Shown: positions 7,986-58,159 of the stretch, piece by piece | How the letters are laid out: every line of letters starts with the position of its first letter | How positions within the stretch are numbered: position 1 is the first letter of the stretch | Assembly: GCA_016212375.1 (NCBI GenBank) | Contig: JACRGH010000044.1 | Coordinates: forward strand, 1,428 to 65,427 | Direction: 5' to 3' | DNA from: Candidatus Micrarchaeota archaeon | GTDB taxonomy: Archaea > Micrarchaeota > Micrarchaeia > Norongarragalinales > Norongarragalinaceae | DNA: 64,000 nt | Position numbers and translations under genes: made by a program | Notes under the pieces: model-generated | What the model saw: only the letters and a program-made list of their open reading frames with translations | Database searches by the model: none | What the model was told of the DNA's origin: nothing

Positions 7986-8285
7986 ATGCGCGGCACCGAG
8001 TGGGCTCCTTTGTATCTGTTGGTGGTACTAGCCATTGCCGCCATCCTGTTGGTCACGTTCGTCAAGCCGCTATTCCGCCAAGCCGCAGTAAGCGCCGAGG
8101 ATGCCAGCAAAGCGGCCAAAGACGCGGCCAAATCCGCAATGCCTTTCCTGGCGTTCATCCCATTTGGGCGCAACGTCAAAAAAAGCAAAAACGCGGTAAT
8201 CCAAATGTTGCAAAACGCGTGCTCCCTTTTCTTACCGCCAAGTCCGGTTCCAGTACGCGACGTTACCTACGGGGGTAAGCCGTAG
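7986..8285 (+). CDS. Small pre-pilin-like protein (class III signal peptide MRG|TEWAPLYLLVVLAIAAILLV)
   Basis: Short positively charged N-terminus followed by a hydrophobic helix. Confidence 0.5.
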   Translation: MRGTEWAPLYLLVVLAIAAILLVTFVKPLFRQAAVSAEDASKAAKDAAKSAMPFLAFIPFGRNVKKSKNAVIQMLQNACSLFLPPSPVPVRDVTYGGKP

Positions 8286-9110
8286 ATGCTCAGCCCAATA
8301 AAAATAAAATTCGCCCACAAAAACGAGGGGGGAATCCGGAGGAACCTCAAACTGAAGGGACGACGCAAGTCTTCGAAGGACTTGCGAAGGCCACAATTCC
8401 TGGAAGGAATTGTGTGCGGACGCTCACCCCTGCGGTTCCGGCGGGGACAAATGGACGCCCCCATTGAATTGGTCATCGCCATCATTATCATGGTCACCAG
8501 CCTCGGATTGGGGTTTTACGTAATGGAAACCAGCAAAAACAACCAGTGCATATCCGCGCTACAGACGCAGACGCAACAGTTGCAGCAAGCCATCTTGGAC
8601 GTAGGGTTGGGCTCTGCCGGAAGCAAAAAAACGATCCGATTTTCCATGCCCAGTTGCGGGGACCAAGCCGTACAGGGCATCCAGTTCGTCAAATACACGT
8701 CCGCTGAATTGTGCCGCCGCTGTCCGGGCCATTATTCGGGGTGTTGGCAAATCGTGCCGGTTGCGCGCACCCGTGACGGCATGACGGCGGTCAGCGACGC
8801 GATTACCTGCATCGAATTGCCGGCAGAACGGGTGAGCATCGAGCAGGCACAGACACCGGACCAAAGTTGCACACCGTTAAGCACCACGCCCTGTCCGGAT
8901 GGTACGACCAGTTGCCTGAGCCAATTGGGCATCGGTTCTTCATTGTATAACCCGGCCTCCGGCACCGGCTCATCCAACTGGCTGACGTTGGGAAGCCAAA
9001 ACGCCCGCCAGTACCTCATCACGTTCAACAAGGTCCTTTCAGTCGGCGATGTGACGGGGCACACCCAAATCACGATGTGCGCGGTACCGGTGGGCGTTCG
9101 GACCAATTGA
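8286..9110 (+). CDS. Pre-pilin-like secreted protein. The true start is probably GTG 8412 (MCGRSPLRFRRG|QMDAPIELVIAIIIMV) or ATG 8451
   Basis: An RRGQ motif followed by a hydrophobic helix; Cys-rich C-terminal region. Confidence 0.5.
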   Translation: MLSPIKIKFAHKNEGGIRRNLKLKGRRKSSKDLRRPQFLEGIVCGRSPLRFRRGQMDAPIELVIAIIIMVTSLGLGFYVMETSKNNQCISALQTQTQQLQQAILDVGLGSAGSKKTIRFSMPSCGDQAVQGIQFVKYTSAELCRRCPGHYSGCWQIVPVARTRDGMTAVSDAITCIELPAERVSIEQAQTPDQSCTPLSTTPCPDGTTSCLSQLGIGSSLYNPASGTGSSNWLTLGSQNARQYLITFNKVLSVGDVTGHTQITMCAVPVGVRTN

Positions 9111-18373: not shown

Positions 18374-18474
18374 AACGCATAGGATAACTGAAAAAAAGAA
18401 TAGGAGTGGAGGAGGGGGGAGTTGCAACGGACCTTCTTTTCGAAAGAAGCGCCACCAAGAAAAATCCGATTAGA

Positions 18475-18635
18475 CCCCGAACCCCCCGAGTCTTGTTTTG
18501 CGAATCAAAATGGAGGAGGGGGGATTCGAACCCGCCGCGGGACCACAGGGGGAGCACCCCCTATAGTCCTACGTTACCCCGAACCCCCCGAGTCTTGTTT
18601 TGCGAATCAAAATGGAGGAGGGGGGATTCGAACCC
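18475..18635 (-). repeat. Two direct copies of a 59-bp tRNA-like unit (18475-18533 and 18577-18635). Each is a T-arm plus acceptor 3' strand plus a conserved trailer
   Basis: On the minus strand each copy reads GGGTTCGAATCCCCCCTCCTCCA-TTTTGATTCGCAAAACAAGACTCGGGGGGTTCGGGG. Only copy 2 has a perfectly paired T-stem (GGGGG/CCCCC). Confidence 0.6.
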
Positions 18636-18800
18636 CCGAAGGCGCTAGGCCACAGGATGGCTTACCCAAATCTGATTCGCGCACAAAAATAATTTTCTTT
18701 CTTTTGGCCGACCAGATTTTCTTTCTTTTCGGGAAAAGAAAGAAAAAATGGGCCTTAAGTCCTGCCCTTTTGGCCAGACTCAGGACACTCCTCCGCACAG
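18612..18800 (-). ncRNA. Candidate atypical tRNA-like gene. A 5' acceptor strand GGAGGAG at about 18790 would match the 3' acceptor CTCCTCC-A at about 18612, with roughly 115 nt between them. Possibly a tRNA with very large or non-canonical introns, or a split or decayed tRNA
   Basis: The acceptor strands are complementary and the T-arm is archaeal-type, but I could not fold a canonical D-arm or anticodon arm by hand. Confidence 0.25.
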
Positions 18801-20922: not shown

Positions 20923-22095
20923 ATGATGCATGCCATGGTTTACCGGAAAACACCACGAAAACAGCACGGGTTGCTCACCGCCGTCGCAAACAACGACGTG
21001 GACGCATTGTTGGAATTAAAGGAAAAAGGCAAGCCGATAAACAATGCAACATTGGGACACGCATTACGGATAGCATCGGAAGTCGGAAGCCTAGAATTAA
21101 TACCATTAATTTTCAGCGACATCAAAAAATTAAAAGCGGCAACAAAAACAACGGATGAACAAGGAAAAACAGCACTCCACATCGCTTCGGAAAAAGGACA
21201 TGAAAATTTCGCCGATTTTTTGATTGAAGCCGGGGCCAACGTCAATGTTGCGGACAAGCTAGGACATACGCCACTGCATGCCGCGGCCAAAGAAGGACGA
21301 GCAAACATCATCCGGCTACTCCTCCGGCATAAAGCCGACCCCGAACAAGTTGACGAAAAAGGGGAAACGCCGCTCTACCATGCGGTCGTCTATAACCGAA
21401 TCAATGCAGTCCATGCGTTAGGCGAAAAATCAGACGTCAACCGGCATTTCGAACACCAAACCAACCCATTCGGCCCGGTCAGGGACAAATATGATTTGAA
21501 AATACTCGAAAATCTCGGTTTTCCAAAATTGGAGCAAAGCGAACAGGGAAACACGTTGCTGCATGTCGCCACACTCCGTGGAGATTCGGAAATGGCAACG
21601 GCGCTCATGCACCATGGGGCAGACCCGACCGAGCGCAACGGATACGGGGTGACTCCGATCCATTTGGCGGCCTACCGGGGCGATTTTTCTACGCTAAAAC
21701 AACTCGTGGGAAAAAGTACAAACCGCATCAAAATTAAAGACAACGCAGGCTTCACCCCGCTGCATTATGCGGCAAAAGCGAGATTGGATGATGCGAACGA
21801 ACACACCGAATTGATGGATTGGCTGATTAGCCAGGGGGCGAACGTTTCCGCCGAAAGCCACAAAAAAATTACACCGCTTCACTTGGCAGCAGACCGATAC
21901 GATGCGGAAAAAGCCATGGGATTACTCTTGGAAAAAGGCGCAAGAATCGATGCCCAAGACCACGAAGGCAATACCCCGCTTCATTATGCCGCACAAGGTA
22001 GGAGGAAAAATTTTGACTACTTGGTTTCAAGAGGCGCCGGTACAACAATACGGAATCAAAAGGGGCATCTACCGGCATACGACCGAATGGTTTAA
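20923..22095 (+). CDS. Ankyrin-repeat protein with about nine repeats
   Basis: Repeated G-TPLH-AA...G......LL..GA..N motifs. Confidence 0.8.
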   Translation: MMHAMVYRKTPRKQHGLLTAVANNDVDALLELKEKGKPINNATLGHALRIASEVGSLELIPLIFSDIKKLKAATKTTDEQGKTALHIASEKGHENFADFLIEAGANVNVADKLGHTPLHAAAKEGRANIIRLLLRHKADPEQVDEKGETPLYHAVVYNRINAVHALGEKSDVNRHFEHQTNPFGPVRDKYDLKILENLGFPKLEQSEQGNTLLHVATLRGDSEMATALMHHGADPTERNGYGVTPIHLAAYRGDFSTLKQLVGKSTNRIKIKDNAGFTPLHYAAKARLDDANEHTELMDWLISQGANVSAESHKKITPLHLAADRYDAEKAMGLLLEKGARIDAQDHEGNTPLHYAAQGRRKNFDYLVSRGAGTTIRNQKGHLPAYDRMV

Positions 22096-22105
22096 AAAAA
22101 AGACA

Positions 22106-22177
22106 AGCCCCGGACGAGGATCGAACTCGTGACCCCCTGTTTACGAAACAGGTGCTCTACCGCTGAGCTACCGAGGC
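22106..22177 (-). tRNA. tRNA-Thr (anticodon CGU), no encoded CCA
   Basis: Minus-strand fold: GCCTCGG-TA-GCTC-AGCGGTA-GAGC-A-CCTGT-TTCGTAA-ACAGG-GGGTC-ACGAG-TTCGATC-CTCGT-CCGGGGC-T. Confidence 0.85.
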
Positions 22178-22212
22178 AACTTGTTAATTCTTTTTTGCTT
22201 CCTTTTTGTTTG

Positions 22213-22346
22213 TTTTCTTTTCGGCAGGCCGCATTTCCCGGGCAAACGCATCTGCGTTTGCTGGGCCCCGCAAAGCCGAATGCTTTGCGCGGGTCTTTTC
22301 AAAAAAGAAAAGGCGACCGTGTCTGTACCGCTGAGCTACCGAGGCG
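22213..22346 (-). repeat. Promoter-proximal module upstream of tRNA-Thr(CGU), plus a 21-nt duplicate of the tRNA 5' end (22326-22346)
   Basis: In RNA sense: GCCTCGGTAGCTCAGCGGTA | CAGACACGGTCGCC | half hairpin CTTTTC-AAAAAA-GAAAAG | 63-bp nested palindromic insert | ATGCGGCCTGCCGAAAAGAAAAC | ~45 nt | tRNA. Confidence 0.7.
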
Positions 22347-22417
22347 TCTTGAGCAAAACCATCGACCCTGCCGGGTACGATGGCAAACTGGTTTTATCTA
22401 TCGACAATCTTTGAGCA

Positions 22418-23247: not shown

Positions 23248-24366
23248 ATGGAAAAAAGCGCTACCGGCGGACTCAGTTTACTCCTAGTGTCGGTGTTTCT
23301 TTTTTCGGCGTCACTCCAGGCCGCAACGTCCGCGTCCAACGCCATCCCATCCTGCCCCAATAACCAAGTGTGCATGTTTTACGGCGCGTCTTTGGAAAAA
23401 AACACACCCGGACCTTCCGGCACCGGGTTTTCCACCTCGAAATTCGTCTGCCCGGTCAATATCCCCATCACCGGCACGTTCGGCGCCCCATATACCAACG
23501 CCAATGGAGAAACCCGCAGACGGCCCGGAATCGAAATGCGGGTGCCGGAAAACACGGACGTTAAATCTCCGGCAGCGGGAAAAGTGCTGGAGACCGGTTT
23601 TGAACAAACCGGTGCCGGACATTTCATCCTCATCCGCCACGCGACAAATCCCAACGTGGAGAGCAAAATCGGTTACCTGCAAGGACCGTCCACCAAACGG
23701 GGGGGAGAATCGGTCAAAGCGGGCGAAACAATAGGCAAATCCGGAAAAAGCGGTGCCGCGCTATGGCCCTCAGTTTATTTCGAACTGACACGCGCCACCA
23801 TTCCACAAATCGAGGTAGAAGACATCTGTAAATCCACCCCCGTCGTGTCAAGTTCGACCGTTGCTCCGGTAAAGGCGACGGTTGCAGGCCGAGTGGACTG
23901 TACGCAATTTTCGAACAATCCGGTGCCGGAGTCCTGGAGCGTCGTGCCGGGCGGCCGCTTCGGCAGCCAACGGGCGTACCCGGGCGGACACAGCGGATTC
24001 GATTACGGGGGATTCAACTGCGGGCAACCCGTCAAAGCGGTTTGGGCAGGCCAAGTGCGATACTACCGGAACACCGCTGCAGGCTACGGCAACGAAGTTT
24101 CCATCAAAACCGCGTGCACCGACGGGACTGAAAAAATTGTGACGTACGACCACCTCCAGGGGTTCAACGCGGCCGTATTGGACAAAGGTGCAGTACAAGC
24201 CGGAGACGTCATCGCCTACCTTGGAAATACCGGAGGCAACTATGAATGCCACTTGCACGTCAACGTCTTTGCATCGCCATTTCGAATCCAAAACGGATTG
24301 GATGCCGGCAACGTCATGAATCCAGAAGGACTGGTCAGGGGCGGCTTGCAGGGCCATTTGGCATAA
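23248..24366 (+). CDS. Secreted protein with a degenerate LytM-like domain and a C-terminal catalytic M23 peptidase domain
   Basis: Signal peptide; HSGFDYG (HxxxD) and CHLHVNV (HxH) zinc motifs in the C-terminal half; Cys pairs; paralog of 24463-25563. Confidence 0.7.
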   Translation: MEKSATGGLSLLLVSVFLFSASLQAATSASNAIPSCPNNQVCMFYGASLEKNTPGPSGTGFSTSKFVCPVNIPITGTFGAPYTNANGETRRRPGIEMRVPENTDVKSPAAGKVLETGFEQTGAGHFILIRHATNPNVESKIGYLQGPSTKRGGESVKAGETIGKSGKSGAALWPSVYFELTRATIPQIEVEDICKSTPVVSSSTVAPVKATVAGRVDCTQFSNNPVPESWSVVPGGRFGSQRAYPGGHSGFDYGGFNCGQPVKAVWAGQVRYYRNTAAGYGNEVSIKTACTDGTEKIVTYDHLQGFNAAVLDKGAVQAGDVIAYLGNTGGNYECHLHVNVFASPFRIQNGLDAGNVMNPEGLVRGGLQGHLA

Positions 24367-24462: not shown

Positions 24463-25563
24463 ATGCACGCGCGATGGACCGGAGCCATTTTTTTCCTAGG
24501 CTTGCTATTTATTGCGACATCCGTACAGGCCGCAACCATGCCAACGTGTCCGGCCAACCAGGTCTGCTTCTTTTACGGTGCCAGTTTGGAAAAAACGGCA
24601 AGCCAAAAATCGTTTTCGACCACCGGATTTTCCTGCCCGGTGGCGGCGGCCATAACCGTTCCGTTCAGCCACGCACGAAACGCCAATGGCAAAATCCGGG
24701 CCCATTTGGGCATCGGCTTGGACACACCCGTAGGCACGGCCGTGAAAGCGGCGGCGAACGGGAAAGTCATACAGACTCCGACCGATTATTCGGATTTAGG
24801 CACCGTCATCATTCTGCGCCATTCGGATAATCCCAAAGTGGAAACCCAATACGGCCACCTGCAAAAAGCCAATGTTAGACCCGGCGACACCGTCAAAAAA
24901 GGCGACATCATCGGATTATCAGGCCAAAGCGGACAGGGCACAGACAGGCCGATGCTGTATTTTGAACTGGACCGCGACGGCAATCCCAGCTCGGAAGTGC
25001 AGGACATCTGCAAGAACGCCTATGTGGCGCCGGCTCCGATAAGCAAACCCGGTCAAACCCCAAAACCGGCTATTCCAAATTCAGGCAATAGCGTGGTGGG
25101 CGGTCCATCGCTCGGAACCACTCAAATTCTGAGCATCCTAAAAGCGGTACGCTCGCCAGCGGCCGATGCGGACACGGCAACGTGTTTCTATGAAAAAAGC
25201 CAGCAGTACAACATCGATGTCGCGTATATGCTCGCGTTTTTTGGGCAAGAATCCACATGGGGAACAGCATCCGGCTACGCCAGCACGCATACCGTTGGTA
25301 ACATCGTCAAAAACGCACCGGGAAGCTACTTATGCGATCAGGCATCCAATGGCCGGTTTTGTTCCTACAGCAGTTGGTGCCGGGGTGCAGAGCATTGGTA
25401 TTACTACATCAAAAATTCGCCACTTTATCTGCCCCAGGGTAAAACGACACCGGAACAAATCATCCCGATTTACGCGCCCGCCAGTGAAAATAACGTGGGA
25501 TCGTACGTCGCATTCGTCAACCGGTGCGTAACCAATTGGAGAGCGGGTTCTTCGATCTGTTGA
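24463..25563 (+). CDS. Secreted protein with an N-terminal LytM/M23-like domain and a C-terminal glucosaminidase-like domain
   Basis: Signal peptide; the N-terminal module shared with 23248 (CP.NQVC.FYGASLEK...F.CPV); C-terminal AFFGQESTWGTASGYASTHTVGNIVKN resembles the N-acetylglucosaminidase family. Confidence 0.55.
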   Translation: MHARWTGAIFFLGLLFIATSVQAATMPTCPANQVCFFYGASLEKTASQKSFSTTGFSCPVAAAITVPFSHARNANGKIRAHLGIGLDTPVGTAVKAAANGKVIQTPTDYSDLGTVIILRHSDNPKVETQYGHLQKANVRPGDTVKKGDIIGLSGQSGQGTDRPMLYFELDRDGNPSSEVQDICKNAYVAPAPISKPGQTPKPAIPNSGNSVVGGPSLGTTQILSILKAVRSPAADADTATCFYEKSQQYNIDVAYMLAFFGQESTWGTASGYASTHTVGNIVKNAPGSYLCDQASNGRFCSYSSWCRGAEHWYYYIKNSPLYLPQGKTTPEQIIPIYAPASENNVGSYVAFVNRCVTNWRAGSSIC

Positions 25564-25921: not shown

Positions 25922-26013
25922 GGACGATTAAGGATGAAGCCGGTTAAAAAAAGCGGTTGAAAATGCGCCTGGAAAAAAGTATAGAAAAACGACGACAGAT
26001 GCTAATTGGAAAA

Positions 26014-26040
26014 AAAGAAGCCCCCGACGCGAAGTGCAAC
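26014..26040 (-). repeat. Degenerate duplicate of the 3' end of tRNA-Thr(GGU) (TTCGCGTCGGGGGCT), with a conserved leader
   Basis: Minus-strand GGACTAAGGGGCGCTTCCCGTGGTCC...TTCGCGTCGGGGGCTTC. The leader resembles the GGACTATAGGGGGTGCTCCCCCTGTGGTCC found beside the 18475 repeat. Confidence 0.5.
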
Positions 26041-26127
26041 CCGGACCACGGGAAGCGCCCCTTAGTCCCAGGTTCCCCCGAACCCCCAACGAATGCTCGC
26101 GAATCACAAAATGAAAGAAAAAGAAAG

Positions 26128-26239
26128 AGCCCCCGACGCGAATTGAACGCGCGACCTCGTCCTTTTCGGAAAAGCCAATGGCAAAGTGCCGTTTGCTTTC
26201 TTACCATGGACGCGCTCTACCAGGCTGAGCTACAGGGGC
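26128..26239 (-). tRNA. tRNA-Thr (anticodon GGU) with a ~39-nt intron at or near the canonical 37/38 position
   Basis: GCCCCTG-TA-GCTC-AGCCTGGTA-GAGC-G-CGTCC-AUGGUAA-[intron GAAAGCAAACGGCACUUUGCCAUUGGCUUUUCCGAAAAG]-GGACG-AGGTC-GCGCG-TTCAATT-CGCGT-CGGGGGC-T. Confidence 0.75.
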
Positions 26240-26273
26240 AACTCGGTTACTCTTGATTTTTTCCTTTTTCTTC

Positions 26274-26355
26274 GTTTTCTTTTTCGGCAGGCCGCATTTT
26301 TCTTTTCGCAAAAGAAAAAGGCGACCGCGCCTGTACCAGGCTGAGCTACAGGGGC
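26274..26355 (-). repeat. Promoter-proximal module upstream of tRNA-Thr(GGU), plus a 22-nt duplicate of the tRNA 5' end (26334-26355)
   Basis: In RNA sense: GCCCCTGTAGCTCAGCCTGGTA | CAGGCGCGGTCGCC | hairpin TTTTTCTTTT-GCG-AAAAGAAAAA | TGCGGCCTGCCGAAAAAGAAAAC | ~35 nt | tRNA. Confidence 0.7.
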
Positions 26356-26625
26356 AATGGGCAAAGTCGATCGGACTGCCGCCAACATCGACAAGCTTCG
26401 ATACTAGTTCGTCGTGTTTTTCGGCATTGAAGCAAAGACGTTTGCAACCGCCGGTGACGCGACAAAAAAGGAAAACAAACTGGGGAGTTGGGGGTAAAAA
26501 AACCCTCCTACGGCCCGAAACGGGATGCTAAAAACGGGATGTAAAGGAAAAGGGGAAAAAGAAAAGATTTTGCCGGAAAACCGGCGTCAAAAAGGAGTCA
26601 ATCGTTCTAACGGACGTCGTGCCGT

Positions 26626-47109: not shown

Positions 47110-50100
47110 ATGCCGAATCCGGAAATCAAAGGCCTACTTTTCGTGCTGGTTTTGTCGCTTCTTTTGGGCACGTCCGTTTCGGCGGCGGTCACAAACGGGG
47201 ATGAATCAGCCCAACCCCGATACACGTCGATCAGCGCGTTGGACACGACGACGCTGTATAATATGAACAAGTTTCCAACACGGGTCGACACTGTCAAGGA
47301 CTGCTCGCAGAACGCGGACCCGGAAACGAAACTATACTGCGCATTAATCCAAGCGGCGCCATCCCTATTCCAATCCTCCGTATTGGAAATAAACTTGGTC
47401 GTCAATTACGGCCCTAAAAGCCTACAAAGCATTTCCAAAAGCCCGAAAACATTGCATCCGCAAAAAGACACCTCAACCGCGACGCAATACGCGTTTGACT
47501 CCAGCGGCGACGGATATAACGCCATCTTTTTGGACCAAGGTACGCTGTACGTGAACGTCGCGGATTTGAGCACCGATACCGCGACGGCCATCATCAAGCA
47601 CCTGTACGACGAGAGTTACGCATTCAAACTGAACGCGGAGTGCATCATCCGGACGTCCACCAATGCGAAAGCCTTGGCGTTCAAGAACTGCCAGGTACTG
47701 GACGCGGCCAAGACGCCATTGGATAAATTGGACGTCAAGAAAATCGAATGCACGAAGCCCGCCAAAACAGGCATCATCGCCATAACGCAACCAATCAACG
47801 GGCAATGTCCCGCGACGGTGCCAAACTCAGGACAAACCGCCGCGTTGCAACCGGCTGGAAAAGGCACGCTGGATTCGGACCAAACGCCAAATTCCAATCC
47901 AGGCGAATGCAATGCCGCCGATTTTGACCCACCTATTAATGACCCGAAACCGAGGGCAGATGATTCACATGGAAATTATTGGTTTGGAGACCCGTCGAAT
48001 AACCAAGCCGGACATCACGAAGGCGTGGACATTATAGGCGAAGTTGGAAAAACAAAAATAATGGCAATAGGGCCGGGAATAGTCGAAAAATACGAAACAA
48101 CATTTTGCGGAAACGCAGTACTGATCAAACACGATTGCACGATTAACGGAAAAGTATTCCGGACCAAATATTGCCATCTTGACAAAACAAGCAAAAAACC
48201 GGCCGTAGGTTCGCAAGTGACCAAAGGCCAAACCCTTGGCTTGGTTGGAAAAACCGGCAACGCAGCAAATTCGGACGTCCCACACCTCCACATCGAATAC
48301 AACGCAGGAGGCACATTTACTCTGGGACAACCATCAAAAGGCGGGGATTTCGACCCGGTGGCTAAAGGGTTTATGCCCGCAACATTCAATAAGCCGTCTT
48401 CGGGCACACGGGTCGCCTCGCCACAAGGCATAACATTACTTGATTTCGCCGGATCCGAACAACTTCCCACAATCCAAGAATATATCCAAAACACATTCCC
48501 AAATGCGGGCGAGTTCAAGGCAGGCTCTCGCCATAATCCGAAAAGCACTAACTTCAACCCGGATCCGTGTTTGGCGACTAACCCAGACGATGACGCCAAT
48601 GGATTTTTCGGATATCGCAATCGCGGGACGGCGGCAAAACCCAACCCAGGTTGTGTCCACGCCGGAATCGATATTCGGGGAATCAAAGCCGGGATCGGTG
48701 GAAAACCGGTCAAAGCCATGCTTTCTGGAAAAATCTCAATAGTAAAGCCTCAATACCAAATTCAAACAGACTGCGCCATCATCGTGGACTCCGGGGATTG
48801 GGTCGTTTCATACGGGCACGTCCAACTGGATGAATATTGTGACACGAAACGAATAGGGGAACAAATATCCGCAGGACAGGAAATAGCAAAAATAGCGACC
48901 CAATTGTCTCCAAGTAACGGCAATGAATTGGACATTAAAATGCTTTACAAAGGAAACGTCCCTGAATTGAAAGCATTGACTATCCAACAGTTGAAATCGA
49001 ACACCAACCCTCCATATTCCAAGTATTTCAAACGTTATCCTGAAACAAAGACAATTTTTGCTGCCAAAGACTTCACCTTCGACGTGCCCAACTACGATGA
49101 CTACTTTTTATGGGAAGCGTACAGCACTTCATTAAAAGTTAAAAGTGCCGTGACGCCTTCAACGCCTACGCCAAGCAAAGGGACCCAAAAACCAACTCCA
49201 CCCAATACTCAAACCCCGACAACTGCCACGAATACCGACACCCCCGTTACCGACACCCTGTCCCAATTATGCGTCTATTACTACATCGATTCCACCGACG
49301 GCGCCAAGGACAAATTCTTCGACGTGGGCTTTGCCGCGTACGCCGGGGAAGGCGGTGCGTGCATCGTGGGAAGGGCGGGGGCCCAAAAACCCGGGATTAC
49401 GTATCCATCCGGATATACGGCATACGTCAACACCGCCCAATTGCCCGAATCCGAGTCGTACGAAGGCTGTTACTTGGCGAAAATGCCGCTGAACAAGCAC
49501 GGAGCAGATTACCCGACCGGCGCGGTCGTCAAGTTGTTCTTGAGCAAAAGCGCGGACGTATTCAAGGAAACGGGGCCGGCCATGTTGGACAAAGGCATCG
49601 TCCGCACCGAGGCGTCAGCGATGAAAATCGGCAATCCGGTTTGTGGCGTGCAAAAAACCACCAAAGGACCGGTAGTGGATAATGGGGAAGCGGGGAAGAA
49701 GTTCTTGGAATATGCGATGGAATTGAAGGGAATTCCTTACGCCCTTTGTGATACATGCATCCCAGATGGAGTCGCTTGCGCCACCATACCAATGTATGCA
49801 TACACGAAAATGATTGCGGCAGGCTATACGCTTCCGCAAGAATTTTACAACCTAGCAAAAAAAGAAAAGGTCCCATTCAAAGGTAAGGAGGTAAAAAACC
49901 CTGCAAATGCAGGCGTTTGGATGGACATCATCAATATTCCGGATATGACTCAACTACCGAAAAAAATCCAACTACCGTCAAATGCATACCCCAAGTCATT
50001 GCATAATTCTGACACGTGGGGAGGCGCAGCGGAAATTTTGGGTTGGGAAGTGTCTAAACAAAACGCAAAACCAGGCGACTTGGTAGTTTTCAACCGTCCC

Positions 50101-51492
50101 ACGGGCCAATGTAGCGGAGAAACAACGGATGAACAGCCCTATGACGCACAAGGATGCTGGAAGCGGGAAAGCCACATCGAAATAGTTTATGCAAACGATG
50201 GGGGGAAAATTTCCACGTTCGGAAGCGGAAGCAGGCCAGGACAAGGCCCGCCTGCCCGAATTAAAACGGACCGATCTGACGGGTTCAAATATTTCCACAT
50301 CCCCTGGATCGCACCCGGCGGAATCCAAACCAAAGGCGGTAGCGGACAGGCTGTGGCAGGCGGTTGCACCGACGCGGGATTGGCGGCCAAACTGAAAGAA
50401 TACGAGCTAACAATCGAAACAAGCATAAACGGAAGGAGCACATTGAGGGACCTGTCGGATTGGAAGCCGAAAATCCAGACCTACTCCAAACGCCACTACG
50501 GGGAGGACACCGCGGATTTGACGCCCACCATCATCGTTGAACACTTTACGGTTTCATCTTCCTTTGCATGGAATCTCGTCACTGCGTCCAGTTTGGCGGG
50601 GGAAGCACCCGGCGAAGCCAGCCATTTCGAAGTCGACGGCAAAAACATTTACCAGATTCTTCCAATCAACGTGCGTTCACGGGGCACTTTTGGCGCCAAT
50701 CACAAGTCCGTCAACATTGAAATGGTGGCCAAGACGGCCGAAGACCTAGCGGCAAAAACGCAAACACTGGACACGGCTTCGAAATTGACCGCCGCATTGA
50801 TGGCCCAGTGCGCCATTCCACTTGAAAAAGTCTTCAGCCATGAATCGTTCAACGGCGGCAAAAAAACCAATTCCGAATACAAAGACAATACGGCCTCCGA
50901 TTACGGGAGCGAGACCCGCACCGACCCCGGGGATAACAACCTGAAGACCATGAAGGGTAAAATTAGCCAATTAGGGGCACTGACTCCGGTAGAAGGAAGA
51001 GGTGGAGCCGAAGGTGGAGGCGGAAGTGGGGGCGGAGCGGTCAGCGTAGATGTGAATCAAGTGAGGGTGTTCAACACCGCGGATTGCGTGTCCCAAGCCA
51101 AATCATGCGGAAGCACGGATTACGATTGCATGCTGAAAAAAGCCGCGGAACTGGCACATATCGATTCCAGAATCAACACAGCGGTTGCGATGACGGAAAG
51201 CGGAGGAAACACCCGCAACTACAAGCTTGATGCGCTATCAAGTGCAGGAGCACAGGGAATAATGCAATTGATGCCCGGAACCGCCTCCGGGCAAGGAGTG
51301 ACAAACAGACTTGACCCCTACCAGAACATTTGCGGCGGAACCCGATACATCGCATATCAGCTAAAGCGATACGGCTCAATCGAATGCGCGTTCGCGTCAT
51401 ACGATGCCGGCAGTGTCAGCAACAAAGACTCCAATTCATGCGCCAAAACCGCATACACCATCAAGACTATGAACAATATGAAAATGGCATAA
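47110..51492 (+). CDS. Giant secreted multi-domain peptidoglycan hydrolase (1460 aa). Domains in order: M23 peptidase, a second M23-like domain, a CHAP/NlpC-P60-like domain, an amidase_2 (PGRP)-like domain, and a lytic transglycosylase (SLT)
   Basis: Signal peptide; HHEGVDIIG...PHLHIEY (M23, ~nt 47990-48310); CVHAGIDIRG...YGHVQLD (~48640-48910); a Thr/Pro linker (~49150-49250); C...GDLVVFN...SHIEIVYANDGG (CHAP-like, ~49700-50230); IIVEHFTVSS...SHFEVDG...NIEMV (amidase_2-like, ~50470-50860); a Gly/Ser linker; AMTESGGN...GIMQLMPGTA...Y (SLT, ~51140-51400). Confidence 0.75.
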   Translation: MPNPEIKGLLFVLVLSLLLGTSVSAAVTNGDESAQPRYTSISALDTTTLYNMNKFPTRVDTVKDCSQNADPETKLYCALIQAAPSLFQSSVLEINLVVNYGPKSLQSISKSPKTLHPQKDTSTATQYAFDSSGDGYNAIFLDQGTLYVNVADLSTDTATAIIKHLYDESYAFKLNAECIIRTSTNAKALAFKNCQVLDAAKTPLDKLDVKKIECTKPAKTGIIAITQPINGQCPATVPNSGQTAALQPAGKGTLDSDQTPNSNPGECNAADFDPPINDPKPRADDSHGNYWFGDPSNNQAGHHEGVDIIGEVGKTKIMAIGPGIVEKYETTFCGNAVLIKHDCTINGKVFRTKYCHLDKTSKKPAVGSQVTKGQTLGLVGKTGNAANSDVPHLHIEYNAGGTFTLGQPSKGGDFDPVAKGFMPATFNKPSSGTRVASPQGITLLDFAGSEQLPTIQEYIQNTFPNAGEFKAGSRHNPKSTNFNPDPCLATNPDDDANGFFGYRNRGTAAKPNPGCVHAGIDIRGIKAGIGGKPVKAMLSGKISIVKPQYQIQTDCAIIVDSGDWVVSYGHVQLDEYCDTKRIGEQISAGQEIAKIATQLSPSNGNELDIKMLYKGNVPELKALTIQQLKSNTNPPYSKYFKRYPETKTIFAAKDFTFDVPNYDDYFLWEAYSTSLKVKSAVTPSTPTPSKGTQKPTPPNTQTPTTATNTDTPVTDTLSQLCVYYYIDSTDGAKDKFFDVGFAAYAGEGGACIVGRAGAQKPGITYPSGYTAYVNTAQLPESESYEGCYLAKMPLNKHGADYPTGAVVKLFLSKSADVFKETGPAMLDKGIVRTEASAMKIGNPVCGVQKTTKGPVVDNGEAGKKFLEYAMELKGIPYALCDTCIPDGVACATIPMYAYTKMIAAGYTLPQEFYNLAKKEKVPFKGKEVKNPANAGVWMDIINIPDMTQLPKKIQLPSNAYPKSLHNSDTWGGAAEILGWEVSKQNAKPGDLVVFNRPTGQCSGETTDEQPYDAQGCWKRESHIEIVYANDGGKISTFGSGSRPGQGPPARIKTDRSDGFKYFHIPWIAPGGIQTKGGSGQAVAGGCTDAGLAAKLKEYELTIETSINGRSTLRDLSDWKPKIQTYSKRHYGEDTADLTPTIIVEHFTVSSSFAWNLVTASSLAGEAPGEASHFEVDGKNIYQILPINVRSRGTFGANHKSVNIEMVAKTAEDLAAKTQTLDTASKLTAALMAQCAIPLEKVFSHESFNGGKKTNSEYKDNTASDYGSETRTDPGDNNLKTMKGKISQLGALTPVEGRGGAEGGGGSGGGAVSVDVNQVRVFNTADCVSQAKSCGSTDYDCMLKKAAELAHIDSRINTAVAMTESGGNTRNYKLDALSSAGAQGIMQLMPGTASGQGVTNRLDPYQNICGGTRYIAYQLKRYGSIECAFASYDAGSVSNKDSNSCAKTAYTIKTMNNMKMA

Positions 51493-57643: not shown

Positions 57644-57698
57644 GGCAATTCGAAAAGTCCCAGACACATTAAACAACAAAACCTAAAGATGAAACCAT

Positions 57699-57785
57699 AT
57701 GCTACCAAACATGAATCCGAAGCAGATGGCCCAAATGGTCACCTTTTCTTTTCAAAAAGAAAAGGCGGCCTGCAGAAAAGAAAAC
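57699..57785 (+). repeat. Diverged ~45-nt duplicate of the NAC gene 5' end (57699-57743), followed by the promoter-proximal module: hairpin CTTTTCTTTT-CAA-AAAGAAAAG, then GGCGGCCTGC, then AGAAAAGAAAAC
   Basis: atgctaccaaacatgaatccgaagcagatggcccaaatggtcacc versus the true atgttaccgaacatgaatccgaaacaaatggctcaaatcatgaaa at 57818. The module matches those upstream of both tRNA-Thr genes. Confidence 0.7.
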
Positions 57786-57817
57786 AATTTTGTGCGCCAA
57801 TCAAATAGGTGAAACAT

Positions 57818-58159
57818 ATGTTACCGAACATGAATCCGAAACAAATGGCTCAAATCATGAAACAAATGGGCATCAAGAACGAACCCGTGGACGCCTTGAA
57901 AGTCGTGGTCTACAAGGCCGACGGCTCTCAGATGGTGGTCGAGCCGGCGCAGGTCATCCTGGTGGAAATGCAGGGACAAAAGAGCTTACAGGTGTCCGGC
58001 ACGTTTATCGAATCCAGCGGAAACCCCGACGACGCCACCCCAACAGACCTAGACCTCATCATGGATGAGACGGGTTGCTCAAAAGTAGAGGCGCAAAGTG
58101 CGCTTGACGAATCAAAGGGCGATTTGGCGGAAGCGATTTTGAAGTTGAAGAAGGAGTAA
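57818..58159 (+). CDS. nac: Nascent polypeptide-associated complex alpha subunit (NAC plus a C-terminal UBA domain). The listed ORF starts at GTG 57809; the ATG at 57818 has an AGGTGA Shine-Dalgarno-like sequence 6 nt upstream
   Basis: MLPNMNPKQMAQIMKQMGI...; a C-terminal UBA-like region. Confidence 0.8.
   Translation: MLPNMNPKQMAQIMKQMGIKNEPVDALKVVVYKADGSQMVVEPAQVILVEMQGQKSLQVSGTFIESSGNPDDATPTDLDLIMDETGCSKVEAQSALDESKGDLAEAILKLKKE

What the first reader, a model, noticed from the sequence alone, without database searches (positions are those of the whole stretch)
26007..26355. tRNA-Thr(GGU) is flanked on both sides by partial copies of itself
Upstream of the intron-containing tRNA is the module plus a 22-nt duplicate of its 5' end. 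Downstream is a degenerate copy of its 3' end (TTCGCGTCGGGGGCT), preceded by a conserved leader GGACTAAGGGGCGCTTCCCGTGGTCC and a trailer motif TTTTGTGATTCGC...GGGGGTTCGGGGG. Both leader and trailer also occur next to the tRNA-like repeats at 18475-18635. So both ends of tRNA genes are being copied into their flanks, together with conserved non-tRNA sequence. This is reminiscent of att-site remnants or split-tRNA half-genes, but matches neither cleanly.
Basis: seen in the sequence. Interest (0 to 1): 0.6.

Follow-up and report, generated by a model that had tools for sequence, protein, structure and literature searches.

The report
Gene-end-copying mini-insertions in Micrarchaeota
The partial tRNA copies are real: they are direct repeats bracketing small non-coding hairpin modules that, in these tiny (DPANN) archaea, sit at the ends of tRNA, RNase P RNA and protein genes next to a duplicate of the gene's end. 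I found no published description of such an insertion, and it bears on how archaeal tRNA genes become interrupted.

Summary
tRNA-Thr(GGU) lies on the minus strand at 26128-26239, with a 38-nt intron. Downstream are an ~85-nt module (M1) and an exact 15-nt copy of the tRNA's 3' end. Upstream are a ~92-nt module (M2 type) and a 24-nt copy of its 5' end.

The interpretation needs widening, because this is not tRNA-specific. About 25 M1 copies occur in the window and in related Micrarchaeota MAGs and metagenome contigs. Nearly every one has the layout [intact gene ... X]-[module]-[orphan copy X']. X is the last or first 13-106 nt of a tRNA, of RNase P RNA, or of a protein gene, stop or start codon included.

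The modules share asymmetric ends (T-run/GATTCGC ... hairpin ... GGTCC-CGG). They have no ORF and no terminal inverted repeats. They are present or absent at the same site in related genomes.

Orphan coding copies differ from the working copy by 35 synonymous versus 6 non-synonymous codons (0 of 20,000 simulations reach this). They therefore look like alleles from diverged lineages, not decayed in-place duplicates.

The tRNA-Leu intron is built from the same M2-type module. No integrase, transposase or reverse transcriptase, no Rfam family and no viral copy was found.

Best reading: a non-autonomous insertion-module family with long, variable duplications of gene ends, spread by homologous recombination. 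The insertion chemistry is unresolved.

The parts
26128..26239 (-). tRNA-Thr(GGU), intact, with a 38-nt canonical intron at 26164-26201
   Evidence: ARAGORN with introns; Rfam tRNA 46.1 bits. The ortholog in L016 has identical exons and an unrelated intron.
26128..26142 (-). X: last 15 nt of the tRNA (T-stem 3' strand, acceptor 3' strand, discriminator), the copy in use
   Evidence: Read from the sequence; repeat alignment.
26034..26127 (-). M1-type module: T-rich stretch and TTTTGTGATTCGC (26099-26111), GGGGGTTCGGGG (26076-26087), hairpin GGAC..GTCC (26043-26068), tail GGGTTGCAC (26034-26042)
   Evidence: nhmmer E = 6e-17; hairpin 98% paired, 3 covarying pairs.
26019..26033 (-). X': orphan copy of the tRNA 3' end, 15/15 identical, followed by the native T-run
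   Evidence: (D1). Kept at the same place in L016/L022, where it is 20 nt.
26242..26333 (+). M2-type module. Its sense strand is the plus strand. Its T/A-rich 5' part abuts the tRNA 5' end. Hairpin GGCCGCA..GGCGACC at 26290-26326, tail GCGCCTG.
   Evidence: Inverted repeat I18; fold; M2-type profile E = 5e-14. Absent upstream of the orthologous tRNA in L016.
26334..26357 (-). Orphan copy of tRNA positions -2 to 22, with the ancestral upstream flank still attached
   Evidence: D12, D7. By eye, the flank beyond it looks related to the tRNA upstream flank in L016; BLAST did not align it.
26360..26400 (+). M3 hairpin (AAAGTCGATCGGACTGCCGCCAACATCGACAAGCT), a third recurrent small module next to the orphan
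   Evidence: The same motif follows X' in L002 and L010. Not followed further.
18613..18794 (-). tRNA-Leu(UAA) with a 95-nt intron (18659-18753). The intron is built from an M2-type module.
   Evidence: The M2-type profile hits 18671-18741 (E = 2.7e-4) and the orthologous intron in L022.
18407..18612 (-). Array after tRNA-Leu: M1 (18534-18612), 23-nt copy of the tRNA 3' end (18511-18533), truncated M1 plus a second hairpin (18421-18510), 14-nt copy (18407-18420)
   Evidence: D2/D7. The orthologous M1 + 23-nt copy is in L001, and both tRNA-end copies co-vary there.
22178..22351 (-). Upstream of tRNA-Thr(CGU) (22106-22177): long-form M2-type module (22178-22330) and an orphan copy of tRNA positions 1-20 (22331-22351)
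   Evidence: D3/D5/D13. The ortholog in L022 has neither.
57693..57817 (+). NAC gene start (ATG at 57818): orphan copy of ribosome-binding site + ATG + 12 codons (57693-57736), then an M2-type module (57737-57805, sense strand minus)
   Evidence: D2, (E = 9e-19). All 5 coding differences are synonymous. Orthologous sites are filled in 3 relatives and empty in 3.
8200..8445 (-). Decayed composite module at the 5' end of a pilin-like gene (8286-9110, +). Its counterpart in L021 is intact and has a 35-nt flanking repeat.

Best explanation
The tRNA fragments are the two copies of long direct duplications that bracket small, non-coding, hairpin-bearing insertion modules of one family. I call the family E elements. 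The subtypes are M1, M1* and M2.

In the element's own orientation the layout is [intact gene ... X]-[T-run/TTTGATTCGC ... internal hairpin ... GGTCC/GCGACC-CGG..]-[orphan X']-[native flank].

Shown:
- The modules are a dispersed repeat family in Micrarchaeota.
- They have conserved asymmetric ends, variable interiors and no ORF.
- They are present or absent at orthologous sites.
- They are bracketed by a 13-106 nt duplicate of whatever gene end they abut: tRNA 3' or 5' end, RNase P RNA 3' end, or CDS stop or start.
- The element's T-rich 5' end faces the intact gene in about 27 of 28 cases.
- Orphan copies differ from the working copy the way two functional alleles differ.

Inferred:
1. A module enters beside a gene with a long, variable target duplication. 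The duplication keeps one gene copy whole, so only such insertions survive in these compact genomes.
2. The T-rich end acts as a terminator for a gene upstream of it. Its A-rich complement acts as a promoter for a gene it displaces from its own promoter. This explains the orientation rule.
3. Once a module exists at a locus, it spreads between diverged lineages by ordinary homologous recombination through the duplicated gene end. That leaves X and X' of different allelic origin.
4. The same modules can lodge in the anticodon loop and persist as a tRNA intron.

The chemistry of first insertion is not resolved. Candidates are staggered cuts, single-crossover (Campbell-type) integration of a small circle carrying module + X, and an RNA-mediated route. 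The element is non-autonomous within the DNA examined.
For: - Family and copies: M1 profile hits in the window and in L001-L023. M2-type profile hits.
- Flanking repeats measured for each copy. tRNA 3' ends: 13-48 nt. RNase P RNA: four copies of its last 20 nt separated by three different modules. CDS 3' ends including the stop codon: 20-106 nt. CDS and tRNA 5' ends: 20-55 nt.
- Presence/absence: the NAC site is filled in the window, L026, L027 and L032 and empty in L024, L030 and L031. The Thr(GGU) upstream module is in the window but not in L016. The Thr(CGU) upstream module is absent in L022.
- Orphans mark the ancestral position. By eye, the flank beyond each of the window's two tRNA 5' orphans resembles the tRNA upstream flank of the relative; no alignment was computed for these flanks.
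- Allele-like divergence: 35 synonymous against 6 non-synonymous codon differences. The null gives 17% synonymous, and 0 of 20,000 simulations reach the observed value.
- Structure: the M1 hairpin is 98% paired, has three covarying pairs, and has invariant U.G pairs that pair only on the element's sense strand. The M2 stem is rewritten wholesale yet still pairs, GC-rich in L001/L004 and AT-rich in the window.
- Subfamilies are shared across loci and genomes. The long-form M2 insert sits both at window Thr(CGU) and at L026 NAC.
- No integrase, transposase or RT among the 30 largest window ORFs. No Rfam family. No IMG/VR copy.
Against: - No enzyme and no autonomous copy was found, so mobility is inferred from distribution only.
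- Duplications of 13-106 nt are far outside what typical transposases produce.
- At CDS 3' ends the module starts 0-3 nt after the stop codon in 4 of the 5 cases. Selection alone may not explain that precision.
- Orthologous M1 copies and their orphans are retained across lineages whose CDS are only 76-81% identical (Thr: window/L016; Leu: window/L001). At Leu, X and X' changed in parallel (G57/A57). This points to selection, gene conversion or repeated re-insertion, not a passive scar.
- Part of the M2-type module resembles native A-rich upstream regions (L022, L030). Local duplication may therefore contribute at some sites.
- One possible orientation exception exists (L015 2991-3070).
- The M1 sample was collected with an exact pattern containing GGGGTTCGGGG, so the conservation of that motif is inflated.
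Confidence: 0.55

Rival explanations
1. The repeats are att-site remnants. Viruses or plasmids integrated by an integrase into tRNA and other gene ends, each bringing its own copy of the gene end. The modules are the conserved arms next to attP, and the element interiors were later lost.
For: - Direct repeats of gene ends 13-106 nt long, with an identical core and diverged but synonymous outer parts (L013, L005), are what attL/attR pairs look like.
- Tandem arrays at one target occur.
- A published case in Caldiarchaeum has a tRNA-Thr(GGU) 5' fragment 1.8 kb upstream of the gene, with a recombinase-encoding element between them (PMC3293823).
Against: - All ~25 M1 copies share the same uninterrupted internal sequence, so independent interior deletions cannot have produced them.
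- No integrase among the 30 largest window ORFs.
- No copy in IMG/VR.
- A single element family would need a different attP for each of more than 10 distinct targets.
Confidence: 0.15
2. The modules are host-selected functional cassettes: terminator, promoter or RNA-processing signals, for example a tRNA-minihelix-like hairpin cut by RNase P or RNase Z. The orphan gene ends are themselves used, as alternative termini or as leader ORFs, and are kept by selection.
For: - The M1 core and hairpin are conserved at orthologous sites, while introns and flanks have diverged beyond recognition.
- Hairpin covariation and strand-specific G.U pairs indicate a single-stranded functional form.
- Orphans keep ATG, reading frame and amino-acid sequence.
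- In the window and L026, the orphan-initiated ORF stops at or next to the ribosome-binding site of the real NAC gene.
- X and X' co-vary at tRNA-Leu.
Against: - Many relatives do without the module at the same gene.
- Some orphans are clearly damaged: L004; the L018 T-loop A58 is changed; the window pilin site is decayed.
- No known RNA family matches.
- Having a function does not explain how the same module came to lie at unrelated genes. This rival complements the main explanation more than it excludes it.
Confidence: 0.15
3. The fragments are split or half tRNA genes. The 5' and 3' pieces are transcribed separately and joined in trans, as in Nanoarchaeum.
For: - The host is a DPANN archaeon.
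- In L014 the pieces are a 5' fragment (1-26) and a 3' fragment running from the anticodon loop to the 3' end.
Against: - An intact gene for the same tRNA lies between the fragments in every case.
- The sequence before the 3' fragment is a self-paired hairpin, not the complement of the sequence after the 5' fragment.
- The two Thr(GGU) fragments (1-22 and 62-76) do not add up to a tRNA.
- The same layout occurs at protein genes.
Confidence: 0.03
4. The similarity is due to chance, or metagenome assembly has collapsed strain variants into tandem.
For: X and X' look like alleles of two strains, which a mis-assembly could also produce.
Against: - Motif counts exceed shuffled controls, and profile E-values reach 1e-23.
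- Identical structures appear in independent assemblies from NCBI, JGI, ENA and Logan.
- A conserved structured module always lies between the copies.
- The tRNA cases have exact repeats.
Confidence: 0.02

Closest known systems
attL/attR duplications of integrase-driven integrative elements in archaeal tRNA genes (e.g. the Caldiarchaeum tRNA-Thr(GGU) 5' fragment plus 1.8-kb recombinase element, Sugahara et al. 2012, PMC3293823)
   Same: A partial copy of the gene end is left beside an intact gene. The targets are tRNA 5' or 3' parts. There is an identical core with diverged outer parts. Tandem occupancy occurs. The phenomenon has been linked to tRNA intron gain.
   Different: Only 80-250 nt of non-coding DNA lie between the repeats. 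No recombinase gene is present. One module family occupies many unrelated targets, including protein-gene starts and stops and RNase P RNA.
MITEs and other small non-autonomous transposon derivatives (e.g. Correia elements)
   Same: Small, without ORF, multi-copy, intergenic, present or absent between relatives, with subfamilies. They can carry promoter or terminator activity.
   Different: There are no terminal inverted repeats. The ends are asymmetric. The duplications are 13-106 nt and variable, not short and fixed.
IS1634/IS1549-type insertion sequences, which create long variable-length direct repeats (from memory; the IS4-family review PMC2266710 was listed but I did not read it)
   Same: Long target duplications of variable length.
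   Different: Those are bacterial DDE-transposase elements with inverted repeats. No transposase or inverted repeat is seen here.
REP/BIME-type extragenic hairpin repeats of bacteria (mobilised by RAYT transposases; from memory)
   Same: Short structured hairpins sit just after genes. Different hairpin types combine in mosaic fashion. The ends are asymmetric and single-strand-like.
   Different: REPs do not duplicate the adjacent gene end. No RAYT was looked for or found. The hosts here are archaeal.
SINE-like retroposition by target-primed reverse transcription (eukaryotic; from memory)
   Same: Variable-length target duplication. One constant and one ragged junction. A homopolymer run of variable length (1-10 T) at one junction. 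A truncated copy exists (window 18470-18510).
   Different: No reverse transcriptase is known here. The hairpin pairs best on the strand that would be the cDNA, not the RNA. No such element has been described in archaea.

Membership tests
Integrase-mediated integrative element (att sites in tRNA genes) | Direct repeat consisting of a partial copy of the target gene end on both sides of the insert | tested here: met
Integrase-mediated integrative element (att sites in tRNA genes) | An integrase or recombinase gene and cargo lie between the repeats | tested here: not met
   The inserts are 80-250 nt without an ORF. None of the 30 largest window ORFs is a recombinase.
MITE | Small, no ORF, multi-copy | tested here: met
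   About 25 M1 and about 10 M2-type copies in ~330 kb of sampled DNA.
MITE | Terminal inverted repeats | tested here: not met
   The ends are TTTGATTCGC... and ...GGTCC-CGGYKK, which are not reverse complements of each other.
MITE | Short target-site duplication of fixed length | tested here: not met
   13 to 106 nt.
Split / trans-spliced tRNA half genes | No intact gene; the halves carry mutually complementary leader and trailer that form a bulge-helix-bulge splice motif | tested here: not met
   An intact tRNA lies between the fragments. The leader is a self-paired hairpin.
Casposon | Cas1 integrase, terminal inverted repeats, 14-15 bp duplication | tested here: not met
   No Cas1 among the ORFs tested. 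No inverted repeats. The duplication length is variable.
Diversity-generating retroelement (template/variable repeat at a gene 3' end) | The two repeats differ at adenines of the template | tested here: not met
   Differences in L013 and the NAC pairs involve all four bases and are synonymous.
Retroposon (SINE-like) | Variable duplication and a homopolymer tail at one junction | tested here: inconclusive
   A T-run of 1-10 nt lies at the gene-proximal junction and the other junction is ragged. Part of the T-run may belong to the target's terminator.
Retroposon (SINE-like) | A reverse transcriptase partner in the genome | not testable with these tools
   Only 64 kb of the genome and scattered loci were accessible.
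Known RNA families (Rfam 15) | Match to a curated covariance model | tested here: not met
   Only tRNA and RNase P RNA match. Nothing matches the modules even at E <= 10.

The most novel reading that the evidence does not exclude
An archaeal 'terminus-duplicating' element, a structured ~80-250 nt module. In this reading it propagates without an enzyme of its own, by copying itself together with the end of the neighbouring gene. One junction is fixed at the gene boundary and the other is ragged, consistent with a single-stranded or RNA-derived intermediate. It then homes into the same gene in other lineages through the duplicated homology. It supplies a terminator or promoter to its host gene. 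It is a direct source of tRNA introns and of the orphan tRNA halves from which split tRNA genes could arise.
Probability: 0.25. Interest if true: 0.85.

Novelty: new variant of a known kind. Interest (0 to 1): 0.72.

Why it matters
How archaeal tRNA genes acquire introns and become split or fragmented is a long-standing question. The leading idea, disruption by mobile elements, rests on a few cases. Here one small module family is seen in three states within a single 64-kb window: after a tRNA with a 3' orphan, before a tRNA with a 5' orphan, and inside a tRNA as its intron. Relatives provide filled and empty sites. That makes the model testable with existing groundwater metagenomes.

The wider pattern is also new to me: the same modules sit at protein-gene starts and stops and at RNase P RNA. 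The orphans preserve older or foreign alleles of gene ends, giving a built-in record of recombination between DPANN lineages.

There is also a practical consequence. Standard tRNA and RNA scans missed both intron-bearing tRNAs, and gene callers will mis-annotate orphan starts.

Tried and rejected
- Rfam at gathering and at E <= 10 on the modules: only tRNA and RNase P RNA match.
- IMG/VR scans with three module patterns: nothing, apart from one chance hit in an AT-rich viral ORF.
- Pfam on the 30 largest window ORFs: housekeeping genes only. No integrase, transposase, RT or Cas1.
- Synteny through the DsbA-like neighbour. It is not conserved next to the tRNA, and the one close homolog's contig has no tRNA.
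- Split or trans-spliced tRNA, or a bulge-helix-bulge splice motif formed across X-module-X'. I inspected the sequences and folds and found no complementary leader/trailer.
- DGR-type template/variable repeats. The differences are not adenine-specific.
- M1's GGGGGGTTCGGGG pairing with the tRNA T-arm. It works only for tRNA-Leu (z = -3.7) and not for Thr (z = +0.3), so it is not a general feature.
- Terminal inverted repeats between the M2 left end and the M1 right end: about 60% similarity only, not convincing.
- L008 (Gaiellaceae) and L011 are chance pattern matches.
- Literature searches for DPANN/Micrarchaeota repeats or MITEs with tRNA duplications found no description.

Full report
**What is at the locus**

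Read on the minus strand, the region contains an intact tRNA-Thr(GGU) at 26239-26128. It has a canonical 38-nt intron (26201-26164). Default ARAGORN and the Rfam gathering scan both miss it. ARAGORN with introns labels it Phe(GAA) because it places the intron differently. The ortholog in L016/L022 has identical exons and a completely different intron, and only the GGU reading holds in both.

Downstream of the discriminator base, in order:
- a T-rich stretch
- TTTTGTGATTCGC
- GGGGGTTCGGGG
- a hairpin, GGACTAAGGGGCGCTTCCCGTGGTCC
- a short tail
- an exact 15-nt copy of the tRNA's 3' end (26033-26019)

Upstream, in order:
- a 24-nt copy of tRNA positions -2 to 22 (26357-26334)
- a 17-bp hairpin, GGTCGCC..GCGGCC
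- an A-rich tract that runs up to tRNA position +1

The motifs exceed shuffled expectation.

**The same parts elsewhere in the window**

- tRNA-Leu(UAA) (18794-18613, 95-nt intron) is followed by the same downstream module (M1). After it come a 23-nt copy of the tRNA's 3' end, a truncated second M1 with another hairpin, and a 14-nt copy.
- tRNA-Thr(CGU) (22177-22106) has the same upstream module (M2 type, long form) and a 20-nt copy of its own 5' end.
- Each orphan copy matches its own tRNA, not the other tRNA.

**Host**

Neighbouring genes include archaeal-type ribosomal proteins, SecY, Cbf5 and RNA polymerase subunit D. There are also M23 peptidases, ankyrin and DsbA proteins. The NAC protein is 100% identical to an NCBI 'Candidatus Micrarchaeota archaeon' protein on a 66.9-kb contig. 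The host is a DPANN archaeon.

**It is not tRNA-specific**

A pattern from M1 found copies only in Micrarchaeota MAGs and related metagenome contigs, apart from two chance hits. None was found in IMG/VR. A profile search gives about 25 copies.

I oriented every copy and aligned its two flanks. Almost all are bracketed by a direct repeat of the end of the adjacent gene:

| Target | Repeat length | Loci |
|---|---|---|
| tRNA 3' ends | 13-48 nt | L014's runs from the anticodon loop to the 3' end |
| RNase P RNA 3' end | 20 nt, present four times, separated by three different modules | L012 |
| Protein-gene 3' ends, stop codon included | 30+9, 51, 20, 106 and 27 nt | L005, L007, L009, L013, L019 |
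| Protein-gene 5' end on the opposite strand | 35 nt | L021 |

A search of the window for short-range repeats then turned up a further case. The NAC gene has its ATG at 57818. It is preceded by an M2-type module and, before that, by an orphan copy of its ribosome-binding site, ATG and first 12 codons.

**One architecture**

Read in the element's own orientation, every case has the same layout:

[intact gene ... X]-[T-run/TTTGATTCGC ... hairpin ... GGTCC or GCGACC, then CGG..]-[orphan X']-[native flank]

- The 'upstream module plus 5' copy' of the Thr tRNAs and of NAC is this same layout on the opposite strand. L012 shows the M2-type hairpin behind a TTTGATTCGC start at a 3' end.
- The T-rich end faces the intact gene in about 27 cases. 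There is one possible exception (L015).
- Subtypes M1, M1* and M2 (short and long form) share the ends and differ inside.
- The long-form M2 insert is shared between window Thr(CGU) and the NAC site of a different genome. These are therefore family members, not local inventions.
- There are no terminal inverted repeats and no ORF.

**Evidence that they are insertions**

- NAC site: the window, L026, L027 and L032 carry module plus orphan. L024/L025, L030 and L031 have a single gene start. This pattern does not track overall relatedness (72-86% protein identity). The gene-proximal junction is constant (..AATCAAAC|AGGTGA). The orphan-side junction differs (orphans of 45-55 nt).
- Thr(GGU): L016/L022 (CDS about 78-81% identical) has M1 and its orphan at the same place but no upstream module. 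By eye, the sequence beyond the window's 5' orphan looks related to L016's native tRNA upstream flank. This similarity was not aligned and BLAST did not report it.
- Thr(CGU): the same holds against L022. In addition the tRNA with its flank is inverted there, and an ankyrin gene is absent.
- The orphans therefore mark where the gene used to begin.

**Orphans look like alleles, not like decaying duplicates**

Across eight coding X/X' pairs, 35 differing codons are synonymous and 6 are not. Random substitution gives 17% synonymous, and none of 20,000 simulations reaches the observed 85%.

L013 has an identical 47-nt core with diverged flanks on both sides. L005 has 30 identical bases followed by a recoded 'Leu-Arg-stop'.

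In-place duplication followed by neutral decay cannot produce this. X and X' in one genome must come from diverged functional alleles. That is what results if a module-bearing locus is moved between lineages by homologous recombination through the duplicated gene end. It also results if the entering DNA carries its own gene end.

At tRNA-Leu, X and X' changed together between the window (G57) and L001 (A57).

**Structure**

- The M1 hairpin is 98% paired over 18 distinct copies. Three pairs covary, including a C:G/G:C switch two bases below a bulge. Its U.G pairs can form only on the element's sense strand.
- The M2 stem is GC-rich in L001/L004 and AT-rich in the window, yet it still pairs.
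- A single-stranded form, RNA or DNA, therefore matters.
- The A-rich complement of the element's 5' part lies 18-30 nt upstream of tRNA position +1 at both window Thr genes. Native relatives have an A-rich box at that distance. In the other orientation it is a T-run directly after the gene.
- I infer a portable terminator/promoter. This would explain the orientation rule by selection.

**Link to introns**

The M2-type profile hits the tRNA-Leu intron (18741-18671, E = 2.7e-4) and the orthologous intron in L022. By inspection, both introns show the hairpin, the AAAAGAAAG tract and a GCGAAT (GATTCGC-like) motif in the same order.

**What it is not**

- No Rfam family matches.
- No integrase, transposase or RT among the 30 largest window ORFs.
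- No viral copy.
- It is not a split tRNA, DGR or casposon (see the membership tests).
- Classical att remnants are unlikely, because all copies share one uninterrupted interior.

**Mechanism**

I commit to a non-autonomous insertion-module family that enters with long, variable duplications of gene termini and spreads by homologous recombination (confidence about 0.55). The primary insertion chemistry is open. Three features constrain it: the fixed gene-side junction, the ragged orphan-side junction with 3-6 variable bases, and the 1-10-nt T-run. These fit three routes:
- a one-ended copying process followed by single-crossover integration of 'module + X'
- a target-primed reverse-transcription-like route
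- staggered cuts

None can be tested with the DNA at hand.

**Limits**

- The M1 sample was ascertained with an exact pattern.
- Only 64 kb of the host genome and scattered loci were available.
- Some junction assignments are ambiguous where T-runs belong to both target and element.
- Part of the M2-type module resembles native upstream regions.

Noticed in passing
window 18659-18753 (minus strand): The 95-nt intron of tRNA-Leu(UAA) is made of the same M2-type module that lies upstream of the Thr tRNAs and the NAC gene. The orthologous introns in L001 and L022 keep its parts.
   Followed up: partly
window 20923-22417 versus L022 5150-5650: Relative to the L022 organism, tRNA-Thr(CGU) plus its upstream flank is inverted, and an ankyrin-repeat gene (20923-22095) is inserted. 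In L022 the tRNA lies 3 nt upstream of the TrmI/GCD14 start, in the same orientation. The module sits at the rearrangement.
   Followed up: partly
window 26360-26400; L002 and L010 after X': A third small hairpin module (AAAGTCGATGGGGCTGCCGCCCACATCGACAAGCT) recurs next to orphan copies. A similar hairpin lies between promoter and tRNA-Thr(CGU) in L022.
   Followed up: no
L010 1080-1330: The copy after M2+M1 does not match the adjacent tRNA. It looks like the 3' end of a different tRNA. This suggests recombination between modules at two loci.
   Followed up: no
window 57699-57811; L026 and L027 NAC loci: The orphan NAC start opens a short ORF that runs through the module. In the window and L026 it stops at or next to the real gene's ribosome-binding site (AGGTGA). 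This could be a coupled leader ORF.
   Followed up: no
window 26128-26239 and 18613-18794: Default ARAGORN and the Rfam gathering scan miss both intron-containing tRNAs. ARAGORN with introns mislabels Thr(GGU) as Phe(GAA).
   Followed up: yes
window 8200-8445 and 8286-9110; L021 890-1080: A pilin-like gene has a composite module at its 5' end. The complement of the module is read as part of an extended N-terminal leader (..SPLRFRRGQ..), upstream of a predicted prepilin-type cleavage site.
   Followed up: partly
window 23248-24366 and 24463-25563; 47110-51492: There are two tandem paralogous M23 peptidase genes. There is also a 1460-aa protein combining M23, amidase_2 and SLT lytic transglycosylase domains. 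This is bacterial cell-wall-degrading equipment in a DPANN archaeon.
   Followed up: no
L015 2991-3070 (minus strand): An M1* module abuts the 5' end of an intact tRNA with its 3' end, and only a weak upstream copy is visible. This is a possible exception to the orientation rule.
   Followed up: no
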